DNA of 64,000 bases from Naegleria gruberi (taxonomy: Eukaryota), in assembly GCA_000004985.1 (NCBI GenBank), contig GG738849.1; one strand, written 5' to 3'. The notes under the pieces were generated by a model, which did not search any database, had not been told where the DNA came from, and was given only the letters and a program-made list of their open reading frames with translations. Each line of letters begins with the position of its first letter. The first letter of the stretch is position 1. Shown here piece by piece: positions 33,411-47,995 of the stretch. A program made the translations under genes and the position numbers.

Positions 33411-36400
33411 ATGAGCCTGAACGGAAATGTTACACCTCCTACATCATTATTGAACAACAATAGAAAAAACAAAGTTATTGGTGACGATGATGATGATGAG
33501 GACATGGTGTCCTCCAATAATAATAATAATAACAATAATAACAATAATAACAGTGCTAACGTTTCGCAAGGAGGTTCTGCATCAGCTAATAGTAGAAGGA
33601 AAGAAGAAAAGAAAGTGGTGAAGAGTTATGATGAATCGGAGAGTGCTAGCGATATGGACACAGATTCTGAGTCTGATGTATCGGATACTAGTAATAGTAG
33701 TTCTTCGGGAGAAGAAGAAGAAGGTATGTTAAATAATTATTTAGAAAATTAATAGTGTCATTTTGATATATTAAAAAAACAGAGGATGGATATTTGTGGA
33801 ATATTACTGAAGAAGATGGAAAAGATGTTGCTGTCCGAGGTTATGAGCATAGGTTTGTTTTTAAAAGGGCTATATAATATTTAATATTCTCGGAATTGTT
33901 TTTAATATCATCATCGTTAGAGGCGAAAACAAAAATCCAACTGCACCAGTTATGATGCAAATGAAAAAGTCCAAAAAAATTAATTTTCCAATTACTGTGA
34001 AAGATAACAAGTGTTCTATCGGATTATCTGGGTATTGTATGATAAAGGCGTCACACTGTATGGAGAGCGGATCGTATTATTATGAAGTCAAAATTGAGGA
34101 ATCCGTATCATGTGACACAACCAAACTTCCTGATTATGCAAAACAAAGTCATTATAGATGTGGATGGAGTATGGAGCAAGGATTCGATAAAGCTTGTTGT
34201 GGATACGATAAATACTCATTTAGTTATGGAAGTAGTGACGGAAATTGTTTTCATAAAGGAAAAGGATCTAAATACGGAGAAAAGTTTGGAGTTGGAGACA
34301 TAATTGGATGTTATATTGAAATACCAGATACCTCAACACCCAATATAATTTATGTTGATGGAAGTATGAGTTTAAAAACTGGAGAAGTTTTCAGAACAAA
34401 GATTGCTACATTGGCAGAGAAAATTGTACCAAATAGCAAAATAATCTTCTTCAAAAATGGAAAATTTCAAGGTGTCGCTTTTACTGATATCCCATATGGA
34501 GCATACTTTCCAGCTATTTCACTATATATGAATGCAAGCGTAACAATGAAATTTGAAAAATATCAACTACAATATAACCCTTATGATATCTGCCCAGAAT
34601 ATATTGCTAAAGATTGGAAACCTGTTGGTGATTTGAGACACCGTAATAAGAACACTCAAAAAACTCCAAGAAAGTCAAATTCACAAAACGAATTCAAAAC
34701 TCCACCTAGTATTTCAAAAGGCAACTTGAAAGAGATTGGAAAGGGTGCTTCTAAACAATTTCATCAATCACCATCCCAAAACAGACATTCAAAAATTGCC
34801 TCAGCCACAATTACTGAAAATAAGAAACCAAAAGAAAAGAAGGAAAAATCTGAGAAATCTCATCATCATCATTCCCATTCAGGACATGGTGATAAGAAAA
34901 CTAAAAAAAAGAAGGAACCAAGGCCATCCAATTCAAGTACCACAGATTTGAAAAAACCAGTTACTGATAAGCAGCCTTCTCCTTCTATTGTTATTGAAAA
35001 ACCTCCAATTGAATTACCACCTCCTCCACCTACTGTTTCAGTTGTCACTTCTACTGAAGTTCCAAAAAGTGTTACTGAGAAGAAAGAAAAGAAAAAGAAA
35101 CCAAAGCCTTTAAGGATTATTACAGACGAAACAGACCTACCAAACATTAAGGAAACAAAACCAAAAATTCAAGATTCTCCAAGATTACCACTAACCCCAT
35201 CTAGTTTGAACCAAAGCTCTGACTCTCCTCTTGTCAGAAGTTCCTCTTCCATGTCAAGGGTGCCAAGTTACTCTGATGTTATGCCTCCTTCTCCTGTTCC
35301 TCCACAACCAAAATCAGATCAGCAAAAATCAACAACACCAACTTTGGATAAGAATACTCGTTCTCCTTCCTCTGCAGGCTCATCGTCTTCAATTAGGAAA
35401 TCTAATAGTGGAACCAGTCTAGAAAAGAGTACATCCTCATCGACACCAACTACACCTGCCACTATCTCAACACCAATCTCAGCAACAAGCACTGCCTCTT
35501 CCTCTTCTGCAAGTAACGCAACTACACCTGCAATAATTCCTCCTGTAAATGATGTCATGCCTGTAAATAAGCCATATATAACAAACATGTCTGACAAGCC
35601 TATCGTTCAATCCTCATTTCCTTCGATTGAACAAATTACACCTCAAGCCAAGGAAAGGAAATCTAAACCAAAGTCTGAAGGTTCATCAATCATGGCTAGA
35701 TCAAAAAATTTCACACCAAAGAAAGTATTAGCCAAGAAGGAAGATTCGGTACCTGTAAAAACTGCTCCTAAGAGAAAGGCTCCAAGTAAAGATGAGGAAC
35801 CTGTCATTCATCACCACACAGTTAAGCTTTTGGATCCGAAAGATCTTCAACAGGCAAAGAAAGCTAAACCTACTCCATCTGCTGAGACAACACCTGTGGC
35901 TACTAATGCACCAAGTGAACCAAAGCCATCATCACCAACTAAGAAACGAAAGACAAGCAAGGCTGAAGCAAAAGAACCAAAGGAAACTCCATCATCTACT
36001 AAAACCAAGGACGAAAACAAAAAGATTGATTCTATTGAACAGGTTACTAGTAATGTAAAAGAAGCTATTCCTGAAAGAATTATGGAGACTATTATTCCTA
36101 AACAACAAATTCAACAAACAGTACATAATCCTGTTCAACCAACAGCTGTGAATCAAACCATACAAGATGCCTCTAAAAACATTTTACAGACCTCTCAACA
36201 TTACTCATCACAACTCAATCAGATTAGTCAACCAAATGTGCAAACAGTTCAGCAACCACAACACGTTAGCACGCAACAATCTTCCACTCCTCAATATGAA
36301 AGATCGAATGCAGAACCAGCATATTCATTTTCTAGTTTGCTGTTAGGATCACCAAACACTTCAAAGAGTATACAAGATCAAATAGGTCAAATATCGTCCT

Positions 36401-37809
36401 CTTCCTCAAACAATTTGAATCACCAATCTTCACAGATACCTGTTAATAATAGTAATTTTTACAAAAATACCTCCCAAGTTTCTACTACCGAAAGAAAACA
36501 AGATTGGCCTGTACATCAGTTACAGACACCAAACAGTGTAACAGCAGCAAGCATGGCAAACACATCATCATCAGTTAGAAATATGCAAACAAGCTTGCCG
36601 AATAATGTTCAAGATATGTCACCAAGTTATCAATCTAGAATGTCTCTTGAAAATCTTATGGCTCAAAACAAACATGAAAATTTGAGATTACTGGAACAAA
36701 TTAATACTCTGCCAAAGGATATTCCAAAGCAACCAAATCCAATGCAAGTCTCTACTCCAACAATGACAAGCCATACTCCTTCTTTCCGTGAATTACTCGA
36801 AACACCAAGTAGCTTTAATTCATCCTCCAGTAGTTCACAAATGTCTAATTCCAATAATTTCTTGACTTCTCAATCAAGAAACATACCTTCAACCGTACCA
36901 CAACAGCAACAGAAGGTTGGTAATCCAAATTTTGTAAACTATCAAATTGGTAAGGATCATACCCAAGGATCAAATCTAGGCAATACCAACAACTATTCCA
37001 ACTATCTACAACAACAACAACAACAACAGCAGCAAGCAGTTAATGAAGTGAAGCAATTGAGTCAACAGGTTTCGAATCAAAATATTTCAAATAATTATGG
37101 TCAATATTCCCAACAACAAAGAGGTAACTTCCAAACCAATACTGCCTATTCATCCAATATGAACACTGCCTCACATAATTTCGCACCTCACCACCAAAAT
37201 GTATTGGTCAACAATACTTCTGCCAACAACATGAATGTAAACCAAAATAACATGACCAATATTGCAAGTATGTCAAATATGAATCAAATGACATCAAATT
37301 TGATGAATAGTCAGAATAGCTCCAAATATAATTCTCTTCAAGGTGCTTCTCTCAACTATCCAACCATGAATCAACAATCCCAGCAACAACAAATTACAAG
37401 TTCATATTCAGGAAATATGGGAGGTCAACCAAAGCAAAATATGATGAGCACTTCTCAACAAGCTTTTAATCAACACCAACATTCCCAACAAACATTGTCT
37501 CATAATCAGCAACAACATTCCCAACAACAATACTCTTCGAATAATATTCCAAGAGGTTTTGCACCACAACAAATTAATCCACAGCAACTGGGAAATAGTC
37601 AAATGACCTCTAATCACCAACAACAATCAATGAATGTTGGTAATTCCAATAACAATATGCAACAATTCCTTCCTGGTATGCATCAGCAATTGCCCAATAA
37701 TTCCCACAACTTCCAAAACTACCAACAAAACAATTCACAACAACAACAAAACACTGGGCAACAATCATCTTTCAAATACTCTTACCTCAATAATAATATC
37801 AATAAATAA
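33411..37809 (+). CDS. ASH2-like SPRY-domain protein (Set1/COMPASS subunit homologue) with a C-terminal low-complexity Q/N/S/P tail of about 1000 aa. Exons 33411-33723, 33783-33852 and 33921-37809
   Basis: SPRY core GYCMIKASHCMESGSYYYEVKI...RCGWSMEQGFDKACCGYDKYSFSY...[38 protein letters not shown] compared with human ASH2L [20 protein letters not shown]...RLGWSQPLG...[29 protein letters not shown]. Two introns (59 and 68 nt, phases 1 and 2) link an acidic and poly-N first exon and a 70-nt micro-exon to the SPRY exon. I see no PHD or winged-helix region. Confidence 0.75.
33517..33552 (+). repeat. (AAT/AAC)n microsatellite encoding poly-Asn in ASH2-like exon 1
   Basis: aataataataataataacaataataacaataataac. 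Confidence 0.9.
37008..37039 (+). repeat. (CAA)n(CAG)n microsatellite encoding poly-Gln in the ASH2-like C-terminal tail
   Basis: acaacaacaacaacaacaacagcagcaagcag. Confidence 0.9.
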
Positions 37810-37954: not shown

Positions 37955-38987
37955 GTGTTTTTGTCTTTTTCATCATCAATTTCGATCATCTTTTGTAACA
38001 AGTATCTTTATCAATATTATCATTTTAATAGTGGTACATTGTTGATGGGACTTCACTTTGTATTTACAGCAATTTTTAGTTTTGCTCTCTCGCAAGCACA
38101 CAAATTCTTTCCTCAGTACAAGGCGTTGGAAAATTTCAAGTTGAAGAAGTTGGATTGGCAATCAGCCGCTCTTATGGGCTTGTTGTTGGCTCTTTCCGTA
38201 GTTTTTAATAACTTGAGTTTACAGTTTAATACTATTGGTGTTTATCAACTTTCCAAGTTGGTCATCATGCCAACAATTCTCGGATTGTCATACATCTTGT
38301 ACAAGGAAACAGCATCAAAACAATTATTATTATCTGTTTTATTAATTATTATTGGTTTAGCTATTACTGTCACTGCCGAAGTTAAGATTACAACATTTGG
38401 TCTTTTCACTTGTGTACTTGCTATTGCTGCAACTGCTGTTCAACAAATGCTTCTCCAAAAGAAGAACAAGGAATTGAATGCTAATCCATTCCAATTATTA
38501 ATTTATCAAGCTCCAGTTGCCTCATTGATTGTTCTTATTTGTTCGCCATTCCTTGATGGTGCAGATGTTATTGCCAATGATTGGCAAAAGATGACGGAGA
38601 GTATTGATTATTTGGTAAGTTGATTGTTTGCTTAGTAGAGGTGAATTAACAAAGAGGTTCAAGTTCTTTGTCATTCTCTCTTGTTTCATTGCATTTTATG
38701 TTAATTTGGGAAGCTTTTTGGTTATTGGTAAACTTTCAGCATTGACTTATCAAGTTGTGGGCCACTCCAAGACTATTGTCATTATTTATGTTGGATCTTT
38801 GATTTTCCAAACACCACTCAACTGGTCACAATTTTTCGGTGTTGTTATTGCCTTAGGTGGTACTATTTATTATTCCTATGTCAAGATGAATGAAACCAAG
38901 CCAGCAGCTACAACAACAACAGAAAAGGTACCAGAACAAGAACCACTCAAATCTGAGCAGCAAGAAGATGGCGAAGAAAGAGTATAA
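37955..38987 (+). CDS. SLC35E3-type nucleotide-sugar or triose-phosphate translocator family transporter. Exons about 37955-38614 and 38664-38987; the true initiation codon is unresolved
   Basis: SIIFCNKYLYQYYHFNSGTLLMGLHFVFT aligns with human SLC35E3 [30 protein letters not shown]. Further matches are LSLQFNTIGVYQLSK compared with LSLQNNTIGTYQLAK, and LTYQVVGHSK compared with VTYNMFGHFK. A 49-nt GTAAGT..CAAG intron joins IDYL to FFVILSCFIAFYVNL. The ORF-track start at 37955 is a GTG, and the frame stays open upstream to 37931 without an ATG. Confidence 0.75.
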
Positions 38988-39027: not shown

Positions 39028-41439
39028 TTATTTCCTACATGATCGAAGTATTTTCTTAAAAACTCTAAACCAGCTCTTCTTTCCATAAACTAACCTTAGT
39101 CCAACATAGCTCAAAATCTTACAAACAATCCAAAAAGAAGTGAGAATTGCCAAATAGACCCACAACATGTAATGTGGATCTGAATATCCATAATTCTTTT
39201 CCAGGAAATAGGTTCCGTTTGTGTAGTAATTTGAAGGGAGGGTAGTATTTAAAGGTGTTTCTAGTTGAATATCAAACTCATTGATAGCCATAGCTTTGAA
39301 ACCATAAAACAGATAATTGAGATATTTAAACCAAGCTAACCATTCAGTATTATGAATACCATAAACCCCACTTGTTAATATAAACATAATATTAATTACT
39401 GGTGTAATTAAATTCAATAAAGGTGGTATAGGAACAAGTGAAACAAGCATTTGAGCAAAACTCACACAAGTCCAATGATAAGTAGCAAAAATAAGGCCGA
39501 AAATTAATACTCGATCATATTCCAATGTCAATCCAGTCATAAAATAAACGATTCCACCAAAAAGCAGCGAAAATATCGACGTTTCTATTAAATCCTCCAT
39601 TGTCTTGGAAATAAAAAACGCACTAGTTCTATAGATTGAACTATTTCTCTCCTGGGTCAACATTGGAATTTGATTAATTAAATTTTTCAAACTTGCAGAA
39701 AACGTTAAAGAGATATTTAAATTGAGAAAGGTAAAAATTTTACCCTTCAATGGCATATTGTTAGGATCTATTTGAAAGTATAATAATCCAATAAATACAG
39801 ATACTGCTATTTTTTCCACGAAAGGTATTAAAAATTCCACTTTCCAATTTCTCAATCTACTCAAATAATTTCTCATTATAAGTGTAAAAACAGAGTAAAA
39901 GAAGTTGGCATAATAAGGCTCGTAGTGAAAAGTTGTTGGATCATTTTCAAGATATCGATTTTCCTCCTTATTTTTCATGGGAATGAAGAAATCGTCCAAT
40001 TGTTTGATATACTCTGTGGCAAATAACTCACTCTGATCTAACGGCTCTTGTGCATCTTCGACTAGTATTGTTTCAAATGTCTCTGTCTGAAGGAGAGAAA
40101 TAACTTGGAACAAAAACTCTACTTCATTATGATTTGATTCATCAGCACTGACACCGATTTTTGAAAAATAGGTAATTAACTTGTTCGGTGGACCAAAGTA
40201 TAATTGATTTCCCTTATTAAGTATTGATATATAATCAAATAACTCTAGTTCTTTTAAAGATGGCTTGTGAGATGTGACCACCACTCCCACACCCATAAGA
40301 GCAATTGATTTCATAATTCTAATAAAATGGGCAGCCTCTCCAATTTCCATGCCATCTGTTGGATATTCAAGAAGTAATACTCTGTGTTTGAGAACATTCT
40401 GCACGGCAATGTGTAATCTCTTCTTCTCAGCTGTTCCAAGGGCTGAATAAAACACATTCTCCTTGTTTTTCAACTCGTACTTTTTGAGGAGGTATTCCAA
40501 ACGTTCCTCTCTACAATTTGAGGCTGCACTCTTAATGTTTGTCAATTTCAATTTGACTGTGAAATTCAAAATTTCCCTCACAGTCAAAACTGGGTGGGAT
40601 GTTGCAAAATGCTTTGGGACATGAGCAACCAGAGACTTGTATTGAGTTGATGTTAGTCTAATACTCGGTTTGTCATGACACGAACAAACAACCTTTCCAT
40701 TAATTAATATTTGGCCTCCAAAATCCTTAAAATCACCTCTCTGGGATAGTATATTCAATAGAGTTGACTTGCCACTATTAGAAGAACCAATGAGAGCTGT
40801 TATCTTTCCTGGTGTCGCAAATCCACACACATTCTTAAGATGCAATGATTCATTTGTAGCTCCTAAAGGATATTGCAATCCCTTCCACTCCAAGAAACAT
40901 CTCTCATCACCCTCAACAAGTGGGTCATCATGAAATTCAACCTTTGCCAGGGAGCTTGATTTCTTAAGAAAACCTACACCTGGATGTTTGATTGGCTTAA
41001 TTGTTCCTTTCAGAGTCAATTTCCTCTGTGGAACAACATTTAATTCAAACTCTACCGCACTATTTCTCCTACTACTTTTAAAAGACAATTCATTTCTCAT
41101 GGCTGAGGCAACAGCTTGCAATGTTGATGGAGAGGCAAAATGGTTATCCTCCAGTTTATCAACAACATCGGACGACACTTGAGAAATATCGACTACTACT
41201 TGTCCTATATCATCATTGGGTGATGAAGATGTTACAACTATTGAGGGTGGAAGTGAAGATGCTTGAGATTCTTGAGTGGATACCACTGCTTCCGACATTT
41301 TTTCGCACTTGATTAGTGTGGGTTCACAGAATGGTGTGTTTCTTTCCCGCTCTACAGTTGTTACAAGAACTGTACTTGGAATGCGTCTACTGACCTCTGC
41401 CACGTCTGGAGATTGGGTTCTTCTTAAAATGTTTAGCAA
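39028..41439 (-). CDS. ABCG (White-type) half-transporter with an N-terminal NBD and a six-helix TMD. The NBD catalytic motifs are degenerate
   Basis: Walker A GSSNSGKSTLLNIL is intact and the H-loop TSHKPS is present. The signature reads SALGTAEKKRLHIA instead of LSGGERKRLSIA. Walker B and catalytic base read LLLEYPTDG instead of LLLDEPTSG. The Q-loop glutamine is absent (AHVPKH). The C-terminal hydrophobic segments and the ABC2-type architecture are typical of ABCG. Confidence 0.8.
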   Translation of the reverse strand: MLNILRRTQSPDVAEVSRRIPSTVLVTTVERERNTPFCEPTLIKCEKMSEAVVSTQESQASSLPPSIVVTSSSPNDDIGQVVVDISQVSSDVVDKLEDNHFASPSTLQAVASAMRNELSFKSSRRNSAVEFELNVVPQRKLTLKGTIKPIKHPGVGFLKKSSSLAKVEFHDDPLVEGDERCFLEWKGLQYPLGATNESLHLKNVCGFATPGKITALIGSSNSGKSTLLNILSQRGDFKDFGGQILINGKVVCSCHDKPSIRLTSTQYKSLVAHVPKHFATSHPVLTVREILNFTVKLKLTNIKSAASNCREERLEYLLKKYELKNKENVFYSALGTAEKKRLHIAVQNVLKHRVLLLEYPTDGMEIGEAAHFIRIMKSIALMGVGVVVTSHKPSLKELELFDYISILNKGNQLYFGPPNKLITYFSKIGVSADESNHNEVEFLFQVISLLQTETFETILVEDAQEPLDQSELFATEYIKQLDDFFIPMKNKEENRYLENDPTTFHYEPYYANFFYSVFTLIMRNYLSRLRNWKVEFLIPFVEKIAVSVFIGLLYFQIDPNNMPLKGKIFTFLNLNISLTFSASLKNLINQIPMLTQERNSSIYRTSAFFISKTMEDLIETSIFSLLFGGIVYFMTGLTLEYDRVLIFGLIFATYHWTCVSFAQMLVSLVPIPPLLNLITPVINIMFILTSGVYGIHNTEWLAWFKYLNYLFYGFKAMAINEFDIQLETPLNTTLPSNYYTNGTYFLEKNYGYSDPHYMLWVYLAILTSFWIVCKILSYVGLRLVYGKKSWFRVFKKILRSCRK

Positions 41440-45478: not shown

Positions 45479-47995
45479 TTATGGATCGAAATAATTTCCA
45501 GATATTGGTCCACCAGCGGTACTGCTTGTTTCAATGTTCGTTTCAGTCTTTAATAATCCATAATCACGACGTGATTCAACTCTCTTTAATTTCTTGATTT
45601 CTTTCTTATATTTCCTGAGCATGGATCTTCTCTCCAAAAAGTTTGAATGTTGCTTAAAGTCCTGATCATAAGAAGTAGGTTCAAGATCAATTAAAGTTCC
45701 ATAAAAACCTCTGTGACGTCCCATTACAAGAACAATACACAAGATAACTTTGGAAAACGTTGTCCAAAATCCACAGTAAGCCAATGATGACCCATCCTTA
45801 CCAACAGTCAATCCAGAGTTTGCATAGGCAGAAATAACTTCAAATAGGATGAAGAAAATAGAGAAACTCTTTGGATCTTCTTTCATGGAGTTATTTTCTG
45901 CAATAGAAATAATAAATACCATGATAATCATCCACATGTTACTTGTGGAGAGAATGGTAGCAAAGTAAAACCAAAAATCTGACAAGTATTTCACTAATAA
46001 TTTTCCAGATTTCTTTGCAAACTTTTTGAACTTTTGCATACGAGGAATAGAGGCATGATTAGATTCATCAACAGGTGGAGGAAGCATTGGATGCAAAGAT
46101 GTAACTGAGGCATTTCTTGAAAGAGTATAACCGTATACTCTCTTCTCTTCTTCTTCTAGTTCTACAATGGCTTCTTGTTCTCTTGTCGTTCTCTTTTGAA
46201 GTTTAACAAATACAACATCTTCGTTCTTGGCATTACTGGTTTCAGATTCCAAGTTATCATTATTTTCTGTGGCAGGAGTTTCAACACTGATTGTTGGTGG
46301 GCTGGATGGTTTGGTTTTGACTCTTCTTTCATTCTTGTGGGCAAACTTGATTGTTTTTTTTTCATCGTTGATATGTCTAACCATGTCCACTATCTTGTAT
46401 GCATTCTCTCTCAAACTACATGCCATTTGTGGTTTTGTATACATCATAATTATATAAACAGCAAGGGTAGGGAAAGAAAGTGTAAACAAGTCAATTGAAT
46501 TGAAACCACCAGTTCTAGCACTAATTGGATGGAATAAGGCGATTAAAATTCTTGTTGCTACAGATTTATCTGCCATTCTAGGACTACCCCAATCACACGC
46601 CAATGTAATAACAATACCAAAGACCAACAGTAAGATGGTGATAATACCATAAATTGTTGTCTGTATACCAGGAAACAAGTATGGTGAAAGGTGGTGATGT
46701 TTCTCTAAAATATATTTGAAAACAACCTTTCTTTTCGATGACATTTTGTAAATTATTACAAGAACATATCTCAACACCAGAGGGAAAAGAACATTTCCTA
46801 AAATGATAAGAATACCAACAGTCATACAAATTACCCAATCATCCACAAAATTGCCTAAATTTTCGTCCAACAGTGTAGATCCGCAATTGTTAAATGCACT
46901 AACAGCAATGTAAAGACCTAGCCAGAATGGACTCTTGCCGTGCATGTATTTTTCCTCATTGTACATTCCTGCAAAAACGCCTCCCAAAATTAGAAAACCA
47001 ACACTATTAATTACTACAACTAGAATGAAGGTTATAGAGTGTAGCCATAATAAAGCAGAATATTCAATGTCACTGTGAGGAAATCTTTCCTTTTGCTTAT
47101 TGGAAGTAAATTTTTGTTTCAGAGCACTAAAGAATGAAACAATTCGTGATTGGGCTGGAAAACTAACTGCTTCGTTTTGTGGGATAGTTGGTGGTAATTG
47201 TACCATAGTTGGTTGATACTTTGCTTCTTCTTCTCTAAGCTTGAACATTCTCTTTCTAGCTCTAAAAATCTTGATGAGAAGAATTGGAATCAAGGTAAAG
47301 TGCGGTCCTCCTGAAACAATTGCAAGAAACAAACTAACTTGGGATGGGACTGTAATATCAACAATTGGTTGAGTGACAAACCCAGCCAAACAAACATTTG
47401 CAAAGCTCATCAACAAGGCGTCAATATAGGGAATATTTGCTTTTGGGTTATTGAGCTCGAATACATAAATTAAAGTACCAAATAGGAATCCGCAAAAAAT
47501 AATATAAGCAATATGAATAGGTGCATAATATCTGTATAACCATTTAGGTTTCTTCTGTGTTGTAGCTTGTTCTCCACCATTTTCAAGATTATTCTTTGAA
47601 CGTTTGCAAAAATAAAAAGTACCCAAAGTTACTCTCAAAAACTGATCAATTTTAAATCCAAAATTATCATCACGGTCAACTTTTTCGTGACCCATATCCT
47701 CTTCAATTTCATTCAATTCCTTTTCTTCCTCCGATTCATTGTCAACATTTTCCATCATGGAATTTGGTTGATTTGAAAATGCACTACCCTGATAAGAAAC
47801 AGAGTCCTGGAATTGGTCTTCAAAACGTATGTTATTATGAAGATCGGTTGGTGTCGAGAGATATTGTTCCGCAGCCAATTCTCTTATACTAATATTATCC
47901 GTATTATTATTGTTTGTATTCTCCTCCAATTCGATGGAGGTTGTCGACGGTTCTAATGATGTCTTTTCTATGTTATTGCCAGTTGTAGTAGTCAT
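45479..47995 (-). CDS. Trk/HKT-family (TrkH-fold) cation and K+ transporter, 838 aa, intronless
   Basis: Trk signatures ISARTGGFNSIDL and AYANSGLTVGKDGSSLAYCGFWTTFSKVILCIVLVMGRHRGF, with four repeated M1-P-M2 hydrophobic modules. The long N-terminal and loop extensions are typical of fungal and protist TRK proteins. Confidence 0.85.
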   Translation of the reverse strand: MTTTTGNNIEKTSLEPSTTSIELEENTNNNNTDNISIRELAAEQYLSTPTDLHNNIRFEDQFQDSVSYQGSAFSNQPNSMMENVDNESEEEKELNEIEEDMGHEKVDRDDNFGFKIDQFLRVTLGTFYFCKRSKNNLENGGEQATTQKKPKWLYRYYAPIHIAYIIFCGFLFGTLIYVFELNNPKANIPYIDALLMSFANVCLAGFVTQPIVDITVPSQVSLFLAIVSGGPHFTLIPILLIKIFRARKRMFKLREEEAKYQPTMVQLPPTIPQNEAVSFPAQSRIVSFFSALKQKFTSNKQKERFPHSDIEYSALLWLHSITFILVVVINSVGFLILGGVFAGMYNEEKYMHGKSPFWLGLYIAVSAFNNCGSTLLDENLGNFVDDWVICMTVGILIILGNVLFPLVLRYVLVIIYKMSSKRKVVFKYILEKHHHLSPYLFPGIQTTIYGIITILLLVFGIVITLACDWGSPRMADKSVATRILIALFHPISARTGGFNSIDLFTLSFPTLAVYIIMMYTKPQMACSLRENAYKIVDMVRHINDEKKTIKFAHKNERRVKTKPSSPPTISVETPATENNDNLESETSNAKNEDVVFVKLQKRTTREQEAIVELEEEEKRVYGYTLSRNASVTSLHPMLPPPVDESNHASIPRMQKFKKFAKKSGKLLVKYLSDFWFYFATILSTSNMWMIIMVFIISIAENNSMKEDPKSFSIFFILFEVISAYANSGLTVGKDGSSLAYCGFWTTFSKVILCIVLVMGRHRGFYGTLIDLEPTSYDQDFKQHSNFLERRSMLRKYKKEIKKLKRVESRRDYGLLKTETNIETSSTAGGPISGNYFDP

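What the first reader, a model, noticed from the sequence alone, without database searches (positions are those of the whole stretch)
39028..41439. ABCG half-transporter with a catalytically degenerate nucleotide-binding domain
Walker A and the H-loop are intact. The ABC signature reads ALGTAE instead of LSGGE/Q. The Walker B aspartate and catalytic glutamate read E-Y (LLLEYPTDG instead of LLLDEPTSG). The Q-loop glutamine is missing. In a homodimeric half-transporter both composite ATP sites would be defective. This predicts either an obligate heterodimer partner, as in ABCG5/G8-like asymmetry, or a non-transport regulatory or channel-like role.
Basis: seen in the sequence. Interest (0 to 1): 0.55.

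Follow-up and report, generated by a model that had tools for sequence, protein, structure and literature searches.

The report
Naegleria ABCG half-transporter with dead ATPase motifs
This is a real, conserved membrane-transporter gene of the amoeba Naegleria gruberi. Its ATP-burning engine has lost nearly every catalytic residue yet is still kept by selection, so it probably binds ATP without hydrolysing it, which is an unusual but not unprecedented state for this protein family.

Summary
The minus-strand ORF 39028-41439 is a Naegleria gruberi 'predicted protein': an ABCG-type half-transporter (NBD then TMD) of 756 aa, starting at the ATG at 41298.

Its P-loop lysine and H-loop histidine are present. 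Five other elements are non-canonical:
- Signature: LGTAE.
- Walker B Asp: Glu (E358).
- Catalytic Glu: Tyr (Y359).
- Q-loop Gln: Lys (K276).
- D-loop Asp: Glu (E365).

This is not an error, an intron artefact or a pseudogene. The gene belongs to a clade found only in Naegleria and Willaertia, with three members in N. gruberi. Every complete member has Walker B D->E, a non-Glu catalytic position and Q->K. Canonical ABCGs from the same genomes keep all motifs. The clade's NBD is as conserved as its TMD, with dN/dS about 0.09 in an orthologous pair.

The loss of the signature (SGG to GTA/GVA) is specific to the two closest N. gruberi paralogues. No partner lies in the window, and no complementary canonical partner was identified.

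Most likely the NBD binds ATP but does not hydrolyse it canonically. The protein probably dimerises within its own clade, which would make it a nucleotide-gated rather than a hydrolysis-driven device. An ABCG5/G8-style heterodimer is a live rival.

Verdict: a new variant of a known kind, of moderate interest.

The parts
39028..41298 (-). Coding sequence of the ABCG half-transporter: 756 aa plus stop, single exon, N. gruberi 'predicted protein' P0001.
   Evidence: 100% identity over 756 aa in one tblastn segment, 41298..39031. The ATG is seen at 41298-41296.
41299..41439 (-). In-frame upstream extension of the mechanical ORF (TTG start, 47 codons). It is not part of the public gene model and is probably 5' UTR.
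   Evidence: no homologue aligns to it.
40900..41298 (-). N-terminal Ser-rich, poorly conserved extension (ORF aa 48-180), probably disordered.
   Evidence: Only 40% identical to the 70%-identical paralogue and 14-19% to the orthologues. dN/dS is 0.43 in the equivalent region of the P0006/P0007 pair.
40150..40899 (-). Nucleotide-binding domain (ORF aa 181-430).
   Evidence: Pfam ABC_tran at aa 208-361. The AF2 model has pLDDT mostly 75-93 here. Identity within the clade is 75%, 55% and 48%.
40762..40788 (-). Walker A / P-loop, GSSNSGKST (aa 218-226). The Lys-Ser pair is kept; the inner Gly221 is Asn.
40612..40614 (-). Q-loop position: Lys276 in place of the conserved Gln.
   Evidence: Lys in all 9 clade members with an NBD. 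Gln in 438 of 490 background ABCG NBDs.
40426..40440 (-). ABC signature position: LGTAE (aa 334-338) instead of xSGGE/Q.
   Evidence: LGVAE in paralogue P0002. LSSGE, LSSGD or LSTGE in all other clade members.
40345..40380 (-). Walker B plus catalytic position plus D-loop: VLLL-E358-Y359-PT-DGM-E365.
   Evidence: E358 replaces an Asp that is essentially invariant in the background. Y359 replaces the catalytic Glu. E365 replaces the D-loop Asp.
40264..40269 (-). H-loop: His391 kept, followed by Lys392 instead of Gln.
   Evidence: His is kept in all Naegleria members and is Gln in the Willaertia member. Position 392 is Gln in 98% of the background.
40114..40128 (-). Position of the ABCG 'NPxDF' motif: reads N438-E-V-E-F.
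   Evidence: Alignment A1. Only the Asn is conserved in the clade. The motif is described in PMC9820320.
39925..40149 (-). NBD-TMD linker (aa 431-505), poorly conserved.
   Evidence: 21% identity to the orthologues. pLDDT is 40-57 in part of it.
39070..39924 (-). Transmembrane domain (aa 506-790), ABC-2 type. It is the best conserved part of the protein.
   Evidence: Pfam ABC2_membrane at aa 516-722, E 4e-29. 87% identical to paralogue P0002. The helices are in the AF2 model.
39211..39219 (-). Invariant N-G-T sequon (N741) in the last extracellular loop, a possible N-glycosylation site.
   Evidence: T-N-G-T is invariant across the 7-member clade alignment. Glycosylation itself is inferred, not shown.

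Best explanation
SHOWN. The gene encodes an intact ABCG-fold half-transporter. It belongs to a clade seen only in Naegleria and Willaertia. In that clade the residues that coordinate Mg2+ and activate water are systematically replaced: Walker B Asp to Glu, catalytic Glu to Tyr/Asp/Ala, Q-loop Gln to Lys, D-loop Asp to Glu, and the residue after the H-loop His from Gln to Lys/Arg. The P-loop Lys-Ser/Thr, the structural core of the NBD and (in Naegleria) the H-loop His are kept. The NBD is under purifying selection about as strong as that on the membrane domain.

INFERRED. The NBD still binds ATP but cannot hydrolyse it by the canonical ABC mechanism. It has changed from a motor into a nucleotide-binding switch.

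The query and its closest paralogue have additionally lost the signature Ser and both Gly. A signature should be free to decay only if the site it completes is already dead. So I infer that this protein dimerises with itself or with its own paralogues (NAEGRDRAFT_72648 and NAEGRDRAFT_82264). That would give a dimer with no catalytic base in either site.

ATP binding and release, not hydrolysis, would then set the conformation of the highly conserved membrane domain. The protein would work as a nucleotide-gated facilitator, sensor or regulator rather than a primary pump. The substrate is unknown.
For: - ABCG identity and motif register.
- Clade-wide substitutions: 9 of 9 members with an NBD have E at the Walker B Asp position and K at the Q-loop Gln position. 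Canonical ABCG half-transporters from N. gruberi, N. fowleri, N. lovaniensis, Willaertia, Acrasis and Pharyngomonas all have D-E, Q, SGGE and H.
- Where the changes fall: of 43 NBD columns that are at least 80% conserved in 455 background NBDs, the clade changes 15. These are concentrated in the Q-loop, signature, Walker B, D-loop and H-loop+1. It keeps 23, including G218, G223, K224, T286, V287, E289, R341, P360, T361, H391, P393, G410 and G416.
- Monophyly: 100% bootstrap on a long stem. There is also a score gap in a search of 1.84 billion representatives, from at least 538 bits inside the clade to at most 362 bits outside.
- Selection: query versus N. lovaniensis orthologue is 55% identical in the NBD and 55% in the TMD, against 21% in the linker and 15% in the N-terminus. 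dN/dS for the N. lovaniensis/N. fowleri pair is 0.09 in the NBD, 0.07 in the TMD and 0.43 in the N-terminus.
- Signature loss is shared by both N. gruberi paralogues, which are 70% identical, so it is old and maintained.
- All retrieved canonical heterolobosean ABCGs keep ISGGE/VSGGE. None shows the complementary degeneracy expected of a dedicated partner.
- Established knowledge: the Walker B Glu, Q-loop Gln and signature contact the gamma-phosphate, Mg2+ or the attacking water. ATP stays bound at degenerate sites. A D-loop mutant turns TAP into a nucleotide-gated facilitator (PMC7756269).
Against: - No biochemistry was done. ATP binding and lack of hydrolysis are inferred from sequence only.
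- As far as I know and could find, every characterised ABC transporter with a degenerate site still has one consensus site. A transporter with none has no precedent in ABCG (PMC7756269; one search found nothing).
- Eight of the 10 clade members keep a near-canonical signature (LSSGE, LSSGD or LSTGE). That fits a signature still needed to complete someone's working site.
- The 'signature free to decay' argument is indirect.
- Dimer partners could not be modelled because the tool predicts single chains only.
- dS is near saturation (0.7-1.5), and the dN/dS pair is not the query itself.
- No expression data were available.
Confidence: 0.42

Rival explanations
1. It is the non-catalytic subunit of an asymmetric heterodimer with a canonical ABCG half-transporter, as in ABCG5/G8 or PDR transporters. 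The partner supplies the Walker A/B and H-loop of one working site. This protein supplies a permanently ATP-occupied 'hinge' site.
For: - All well-studied NBDs that lack the catalytic Glu sit in asymmetric dimers with one consensus site (PMC7756269; PMC9820320).
- Most clade members keep LSSGE or LSTGE although their own Walker B is dead. That is the pattern of PDR NBD1, where 49 background NBDs have a non-Glu catalytic position with an intact xSGGE signature in nearly all of them, 12 with a Q-loop Lys.
- Canonical half-transporters exist in the same genomes: N. gruberi P0181, N. fowleri P0178, N. lovaniensis P0186 and P0195, and four in Willaertia.
Against: - In the query and in P0002 the signature is itself degenerate (LGTAE and LGVAE: Ser and both Gly lost). 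The partner's only live site would therefore be compromised.
- No ABC gene lies in the 64-kb window or beside the two N. lovaniensis clade genes.
- No canonical heterolobosean ABCG that was retrieved shows a complementary degenerate signature.
Confidence: 0.27
2. It is still an ATP-hydrolysing pump that uses non-canonical chemistry. For example, Glu358 at the Walker B position would reach the Mg2+/water site, aided by His391 and the new Lys276/Lys392. In the 'E-D' subgroup a swapped Glu-Asp pair would do the job.
For: - The substitutions are conservative and co-ordinated (D to E twice, Q to K twice) rather than random.
- They are invariant across the clade.
- The P-loop and H-loop His are retained.
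- The NBD is strongly constrained.
- One subgroup has E-D, which keeps two carboxylates.
Against: - The residue at the catalytic position varies between subgroups (Tyr, Asp, Ala), and the Willaertia member also lacks the H-loop His. No single alternative catalytic residue is conserved apart from E358.
- Lys cannot replace Gln as a Mg2+ ligand (my inference from chemistry).
- In ABCB1, mutating the Walker B glutamates to Gln, Asp or Ala leaves only the same residual ATPase activity (PMC7756269).
- The query's signature lacks the Ser and Gly that contact the gamma-phosphate.
Confidence: 0.15
3. It is a decaying gene, an assembly or annotation artefact, or a mis-registered alignment. On this view the motifs only look degenerate.
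For: - The Pfam ABC_tran score is low for an ABC NBD (48 bits).
- The public annotation says only 'predicted protein'.
Against: - The ORF is an uninterrupted 2.27 kb.
- The same substitutions occur in paralogues and orthologues from four independently assembled species plus metagenomic contigs.
- The register is anchored by invariant flanking residues (P360-T361, R341, H391-x-P393) and by PDB alignments.
- dN/dS is about 0.09 for the NBD in an orthologous pair.
- The AF2 model is a complete ABCG fold.
Confidence: 0.03

Closest known systems
Human ABCG5/ABCG8 sterol transporter (obligate heterodimer of two ABCG half-transporters)
   Same: - Same fold and domain order: phmmer E 1e-29 to 1e-33, Foldseek TM 0.70-0.76.
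- The two NBDs are functionally asymmetric: Walker A/B mutations matter in G5 but not G8, and signature mutations the reverse (PMC9820320).
   Different: - From my own knowledge, each of G5 and G8 keeps the Walker B Asp-Glu. Each contributes one good half, so one site remains functional (PMC9820320).
- Here a single NBD has lost the Walker B Asp, the catalytic Glu, the Q-loop Gln, the D-loop Asp and the signature SGG.
- From my own knowledge, G5 and G8 are adjacent, head-to-head genes. No ABC partner lies in this window.
- The NPxDF motif is not kept here.
N-terminal NBD of full-size PDR/ABCG transporters (S. cerevisiae Pdr5, Candida Cdr1 and relatives)
   Same: - These are the best PDB sequence matches, E 1e-42 to 1e-46.
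- The catalytic Glu is replaced and the Q-loop Gln is replaced (Glu in the fungal type, Lys in 12 non-fungal-type NBD1s in my sample).
- The signature of that same NBD is retained, as in most members of the Naegleria clade (PMC7756269).
   Different: - PDR proteins are NBD-TMD-NBD-TMD fusions with a fully canonical NBD2 Walker A/B and H-loop. This protein is a half-transporter.
- PDR NBD1 keeps the Walker B Asp in all but one of the NBDs with a non-Glu catalytic position, and usually loses the H-loop His (to Tyr, Val, Arg or Gln). Fungal ones also lose the Walker A Lys.
- The Naegleria clade does the opposite on each point: Asp to Glu, His kept, Lys kept.
- NBD distances show no special affinity to PDR N-halves, so the resemblance is convergent.
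Canonical homodimeric ABCG half-transporters (ABCG2, ABCG1, plant ABCG25/ABCG16, and the heterolobosean 'WBC-type' proteins such as N. gruberi P0181)
   Same: - Same architecture, length class and fold.
- They are the nearest NBD relatives by distance.
- They are encoded in the same genomes.
   Different: - They have every catalytic motif intact.
- They share only about 22-30% identity with the clade.
- The clade sits on a long, 100%-supported branch.
ABC proteins that use ATP binding for gating or regulation rather than for pumping (CFTR, SUR; the TAP D-loop mutant that becomes a nucleotide-gated facilitator)
   Same: This is a functional analogy only. ATP stays bound at degenerate sites, and loss of normal NBD coupling converts a pump into a nucleotide-gated facilitator (PMC7756269).
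   Different: - They have a different fold class (type IV / ABCB-C).
- CFTR and SUR still have one hydrolytic site.
- There is no homology beyond the NBD, and nothing here shows channel or regulator activity.

Membership tests
ABCG subfamily (type V / 'reverse-topology' ABC exporters) | NBD is N-terminal to the TMD in one polypeptide. | tested here: met
   ABC_tran at aa 208-361, then ABC2_membrane at aa 516-722.
ABCG subfamily (type V / 'reverse-topology' ABC exporters) | ABC-2 type membrane domain with the ABCG helix arrangement, and overall fold superposable on solved ABCG structures. | tested here: met
   AF2 model has pLDDT 77 and pTM 0.75. The top 50 Foldseek PDB hits are all ABCG or PDR structures, TM 0.66-0.76, E down to 1.6e-29.
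ABCG subfamily (type V / 'reverse-topology' ABC exporters) | Closest sequence relatives are ABCG proteins. | tested here: met
   The first 27 PDB sequence hits are ABCG or PDR chains, E 1e-27 to 1e-46. Non-G ABC NBDs follow at E 1e-10 or weaker. Profile-search hits outside the clade are ABCG or PDR proteins.
ABCG subfamily (type V / 'reverse-topology' ABC exporters) | ABCG-typical NPxDF motif after the NBD core. | tested here: not met
   The query reads N-E-V-E-F. Other clade members read N-V-V-A-S and N-S-L-E-N. Only the Asn is conserved (motif described in PMC9820320).
Catalytically competent ABC ATPase | Walker B hhhhD followed by a catalytic Glu. | tested here: not met
   The query reads VLLL-E358-Y359. 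The background is D-E in 437 of 490 NBDs, and Asp is essentially invariant.
Catalytically competent ABC ATPase | Q-loop Gln, signature xSGGQ/E and D-loop SGLD. | tested here: not met
   K276, LGTAE and DGME.
Catalytically competent ABC ATPase | Walker A GxxGxGK[ST] and H-loop His. | tested here: met
   GSSNSGKST, with K224 and S225 present. Only the inner Gly221 is changed, to Asn. H391 is present.
Catalytically competent ABC ATPase | Measured Mg-ATP hydrolysis. | not testable with these tools
   This needs the purified protein.
Asymmetric ABCG heterodimer of the ABCG5/G8 type | A distinct partner half-transporter, typically genomically linked. | tested here: not met
   There is no other ABC NBD in the 64-kb window (tblastn with 19 ABCG proteins). 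The two N. lovaniensis clade genes lie on different contigs with no ABC neighbour. Unlinked candidates do exist.
Asymmetric ABCG heterodimer of the ABCG5/G8 type | Complementary degeneracy that leaves one consensus ATP site. | tested here: not met
   The query NBD is degenerate in both its Walker B/Q-loop half and its signature half. None of the retrieved canonical heterolobosean ABCGs has a degenerate signature. For the other clade members, which keep LSSGE, this feature remains possible.
Asymmetric ABCG heterodimer of the ABCG5/G8 type | Physical heterodimerisation. | not testable with these tools
   The structure tool predicts single chains only. No interaction data are available.
Full-size PDR (ABCG) transporter | Duplicated NBD-TMD-NBD-TMD architecture. 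| tested here: not met
   A single NBD and a single TMD in 756 aa. HMM search finds one NBD per clade protein.

The most novel reading that the evidence does not exclude
Naegleria and Willaertia carry a family of ABCG membrane proteins that work with no ATP hydrolysis at all. Both composite sites of the dimer lack the Walker B Asp, the catalytic Glu and the Q-loop Gln. The co-ordinated gains of Lys/Arg (Q-loop, H-loop+1) and the longer carboxylates would rebuild the pocket for tight, possibly Mg2+-independent, ATP binding. That would make these proteins natural ATP-gated facilitators, channels or sensors built on the ABCG fold.
Probability: 0.3. Interest if true: 0.75.

Novelty: new variant of a known kind. 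Interest (0 to 1): 0.5.

Why it matters
Degenerate ATP sites are a central puzzle of ABC transporter mechanics. In every studied case one consensus site remains, so the contribution of ATP binding cannot be cleanly separated from that of hydrolysis.

This family is a naturally selected ABCG family in which no member has a catalytic base. In the N. gruberi pair even the signature is gone. It would therefore be a natural test case for what an ABCG membrane domain can do with ATP binding alone. It would also show how a Mg-ATP site can be rebuilt (D to E, Q to K).

The family also exists in the pathogen Naegleria fowleri and has no close relative outside Naegleria and Willaertia. That makes it a lineage-specific membrane protein of possible diagnostic or target interest.

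If the protein turns out to be simply the silent half of a heterodimer, it is a modest addition to the ABCG5/G8 and PDR theme.

Tried and rejected
1. Intron, frameshift or sequencing error restoring the consensus. Rejected: the frame is uninterrupted across all motifs, the public model is a single exon, and the same residues occur in paralogues and orthologues.

2. Mis-registered motifs. Rejected by the PDB alignments, MAFFT and the HMM alignment of 507 NBDs.

3. A partner gene next door. None in the window or beside the N. lovaniensis clade genes.

4. Origin from the already degenerate N-half of a full-size PDR transporter with a Q-loop Lys. NBD distances show no special affinity. The nearest NBDs are heterolobosean half-transporters, at distances of about 1.2-1.4. 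The NJ grouping with PDR halves has only 56% support.

5. dN/dS for the query against its paralogue P0002. Not possible, because the P0002 DNA is not on record. I used the N. lovaniensis/N. fowleri pair P0006/P0007 instead.

6. Reading K276-E358 geometry from the AF2 model. The coordinates are not exposed to the scripting tool.

7. Literature. No paper on Naegleria ABCG proteins, and none on a half-transporter with both sites degenerate.

8. Functional hints from neighbours. None: they are a SPRY protein, a TPT/EamA transporter, a TrkH-family protein, a DEAD-box protein and unannotated ORFs.

9. First tree script. It timed out and was redone with a faster distance routine.
Full report
**What is at the coordinates.** The window is AT-rich eukaryotic DNA (GC 0.31-0.37). 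The minus-strand ORF 39028..41439 (803 codons from a TTG) is 100% identical, in one ungapped segment 41298..39031, to a 756-aa 'predicted protein [Naegleria gruberi]' (P0001). The real start is therefore the ATG at 41298 (M48 of the ORF), and the gene has a single exon. Residue numbers below are ORF numbers; subtract 47 for the protein. Pfam gives ABC_tran (aa 208-361, 48 bits) followed by ABC2_membrane (aa 516-722, 102 bits), which is the reverse NBD-TMD order typical of ABCG. The best matches among solved structures are Cdr1, Pdr5, ABCG2, ABCG1, ABCG8, ABCG25 and ABCG5 (E 1e-46 to 1e-29). An AlphaFold2 model of aa 170-803 (pLDDT 77, pTM 0.75) superposes on ABCG16, ABCG25, ABCG2, ABCG5/G8 and ABCG1 with TM 0.72-0.76. 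It is an ABCG half-transporter.

Three independent alignments put the motifs in the same register. These are HMMER against PDB chains, MAFFT with homologues, and an HMM alignment of 507 ABCG NBDs. The motifs read as follows.
- Walker A: GSSNSGKST. The Lys-Ser pair is kept; the inner Gly221 is Asn.
- Q-loop: K276 instead of Gln.
- Signature: LGTAE instead of xSGGE/Q.
- Walker B: VLLL-E358 instead of Asp.
- Catalytic position: Y359 instead of Glu.
- D-loop: DGM-E365 instead of SGLD.
- H-loop: H391 is kept, but the next residue is Lys instead of Gln.

The DNA across these motifs is one clean frame. No intron or frameshift can restore the consensus.

In a sample of 490 ABCG NBDs outside the clade, the Walker B/catalytic pair is D-E in 437. 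Apart from four gapped rows, one E-N and one G-E, every other NBD keeps the Asp, and most of these are N-terminal NBDs of full-size PDR-type proteins. Gln is at the Q-loop in 438, and the D-loop Asp is present in 472. The query is therefore far outside normal ABCG variation.

**It is a conserved family, not a single oddity.** A search with the query found only seven closely related protein clusters. A profile search of 1.84 billion representative proteins found the same set plus three more. The score drops from at least 538 bits inside the clade to at most 362 bits for the next hit. Source names assign the members as follows.
- N. gruberi: the query, NAEGRDRAFT_72648 (P0002, 70% identical) and NAEGRDRAFT_82264 (P0167).
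- N. fowleri: three members, one of them partial.
- N. lovaniensis: two members.
- Willaertia magna: one member (P0023).
- One metagenomic fragment (P0021).

A neighbour-joining tree (589 columns, 200 bootstraps) makes the clade monophyletic (100%) on a long stem. Willaertia is sister to all Naegleria members (100%), and the query pairs with 72648 (100%). No member was found in Acrasis or Pharyngomonas, although canonical ABCGs of those taxa are in the databases.

**Which changes are clade-wide and which are specific to the query.** All nine members with an NBD have Glu at the Walker B Asp position and Lys at the Q-loop Gln position.
- The catalytic position is Tyr in six members, Asp in the Nlov_0631/Nfow_4070 pair ('E-D', a swapped D-E) and Ala in Willaertia.
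- The D-loop Asp is Glu in all Naegleria members.
- The H-loop His is kept in Naegleria and is Gln in Willaertia.
- The signature is near-canonical everywhere (LSSGE, LSSGD, LSTGE) except in the query (LGTAE) and its sister paralogue (LGVAE).
- The loss of the inner Walker A Gly is seen in those two (N and L) and, as Ala, in the partial N. fowleri member P0022.

Canonical ABCG half-transporters from the same genomes have every motif intact. These include N. gruberi P0181, N. fowleri P0178, N. lovaniensis P0186 and P0195, and four in Willaertia.

An unbiased column scan gives the same picture. Of 43 NBD columns at least 80% conserved in 455 background NBDs, the clade has replaced 15. Among them are Q276K, D278 to an aromatic, G336, D358E, E359, L364, D365E and Q392K/R. 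It has kept 23, including G218, G223, K224, the LTVxE block, R341, P360-T361, H391-x-P393, G410 and G416. The changes hit the Mg2+/water/gamma-phosphate and dimer-interface residues. They spare the P-loop and the structural core.

**The degenerate NBD is under selection.** Between the query and the N. lovaniensis orthologue, the NBD is 55% identical and the TMD 55%, against 21% for the linker and 15% for the N-terminal extension. Between the two N. gruberi paralogues the figures are NBD 75%, TMD 87%, linker 53% and N-terminus 40%. For the one orthologous pair with DNA available (N. lovaniensis P0006, N. fowleri P0007), Nei-Gojobori dN/dS is 0.09 in the NBD, 0.07 in the TMD, 0.21 in the linker and 0.43 in the N-terminus. 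dS is near saturation (0.7-1.5), so the ratios are approximate, but the contrast is clear. A pseudogene or artefact is excluded for practical purposes.

**How it most likely works.** The roles of the lost residues are established knowledge: the Walker B Glu, the Q-loop Gln, the signature and the H-loop all act on the gamma-phosphate, Mg2+ or the attacking water (PMC7756269). From this I infer that the NBD cannot hydrolyse ATP by the canonical route. The intact P-loop Lys-Ser and the strong constraint on the NBD imply that it still binds nucleotide.

The open question is the dimer partner. Two observations favour dimers within the clade for this particular protein. First, its signature has decayed. 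That should be tolerated only if the site it completes is already non-catalytic, which is true if the opposite Walker A/B comes from a clade member. Second, none of the retrieved canonical heterolobosean ABCGs shows the complementary signature degeneration that dedicated partners of degenerate NBDs usually carry.

A dimer within the clade has no catalytic base in either site. It would therefore act as a nucleotide-gated device (facilitator, sensor or regulator) rather than a primary pump. One analogy is the TAP D-loop mutant, which becomes a nucleotide-gated facilitator. Another is degenerate sites that hold ATP as a hinge (PMC7756269). I give this reading about 0.42.

**Rivals.**
- Heterodimer with a canonical ABCG, as in ABCG5/G8 or PDR transporters (about 0.27). 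It is supported by precedent and by the retained LSSGE signature in most clade members. That is exactly the pattern of PDR NBD1, including a convergent Q-loop Lys in 12 background NBD1s. It is weakened for the query by its own lost signature and by the absence of a linked partner.
- Residual hydrolysis by non-canonical chemistry through E358, H391 and the new lysines (about 0.15). The co-ordinated, conservative nature of the substitutions hints at remodelling rather than decay. However, the catalytic position varies (Y, D, A) and Willaertia lacks the His.
- Pseudogene or artefact (about 0.03).

**Comparison with known systems.** By homology and fold this is a member of the ABCG subfamily. It fails the tests for a catalytically competent ABC ATPase and lacks the ABCG NPxDF motif.

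It differs from ABCG5/G8, where, to my knowledge, each subunit keeps D-E and one site remains functional (PMC9820320). It also differs from PDR NBD1, which keeps the Walker B Asp, tends to lose the H-loop His and is fused to a canonical NBD2 (PMC7756269). NBD distances give no sign of descent from a PDR N-half. The nearest NBDs are heterolobosean half-transporters, so the clade probably arose from such a gene by rapid divergence.

I found no paper describing Naegleria ABCG proteins or a half-transporter family with both site halves degenerate. These searches cover only the open-access library.

**Verdict.** The specific ABCG5/G8-like prediction is only one of two live options, and it fits this paralogue less well than its relatives. 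The finding is a new variant of a known kind: a lineage-specific, selected ABCG family without a catalytic base, with an extra loss of the signature in N. gruberi. Interest is moderate (0.5). It would rise substantially if biochemistry showed a hydrolysis-independent mechanism.

**Limitations.**
- There is no biochemical, expression or interaction evidence.
- The tree is neighbour-joining only.
- The background NBD sample is biased towards top hits.
- The AF2 model is a monomer with a shallow alignment of 20 sequences.

Noticed in passing
window 37955-38987 (+), next to the ABCG stop codon at 39028-39030 (-): A TPT/EamA-type (sugar-phosphate or nucleotide-sugar) transporter gene lies convergent to the ABCG gene. 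The two stop codons are only 40 bp apart, so the 3' UTRs must be very short or overlap. The gene is split into two ORFs in different frames, with a GTAAGT donor at about 38616 and an AG near 38656. This suggests a very short (about 40 nt) intron.
   Followed up: partly
window 33952-37809 (+): A 1285-aa ORF with an N-terminal SPRY domain (E 1e-9). It is followed by more than 1000 residues of Ser/Pro/Lys-rich and then Gln/Asn-rich low-complexity sequence. It accounts for the strong negative GC skew and positive AT skew at 34-38 kb.
   Followed up: partly
window 45479-47995 (-): An 838-aa ORF with a TrkH-family cation-transport domain (Pfam E 2e-39). It is a Trk/HKT-type K+/Na+ transporter in a heterolobosean.
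   Followed up: no
P0023 (Willaertia magna KAL9646448.1), outside the window: The Willaertia member of the clade is even more degenerate at the hydrolysis site: Walker B region I-E-A, and H-loop His replaced by Gln ('SMQQPT'). Yet it keeps the D-loop Asp and an LSTGE signature. Loss of the His is therefore tolerated in this family.
   Followed up: partly
Background ABCG set (for example P0037, P0164, P0068, P0099, P0086, P0069, P0132, P0057, P0087, P0137), outside the window: A subset of full-size PDR-type ABCGs has an N-terminal NBD with Walker B D-S, D-L or D-M, a Q-loop Lys and an H-loop Arg or Val. This differs from the fungal Pdr5 pattern (D-N, Glu, Tyr). The Q-to-K replacement in degenerate ABCG sites has therefore arisen more than once. 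The source organisms were not determined.
   Followed up: no
L001 3262-5607 (N. lovaniensis PYSW02000026.1): The N. lovaniensis orthologue P0003 spans 2346 bp for 740 aa, and the locus does not translate straight through. It therefore contains intron sequence, whereas the N. gruberi gene in the window is intron-less.
   Followed up: no
window 1-64000: No tRNA genes were detected in the whole 64-kb window (ARAGORN). Genes are densely packed on both strands, with 29 ORFs of at least 200 aa.
   Followed up: no
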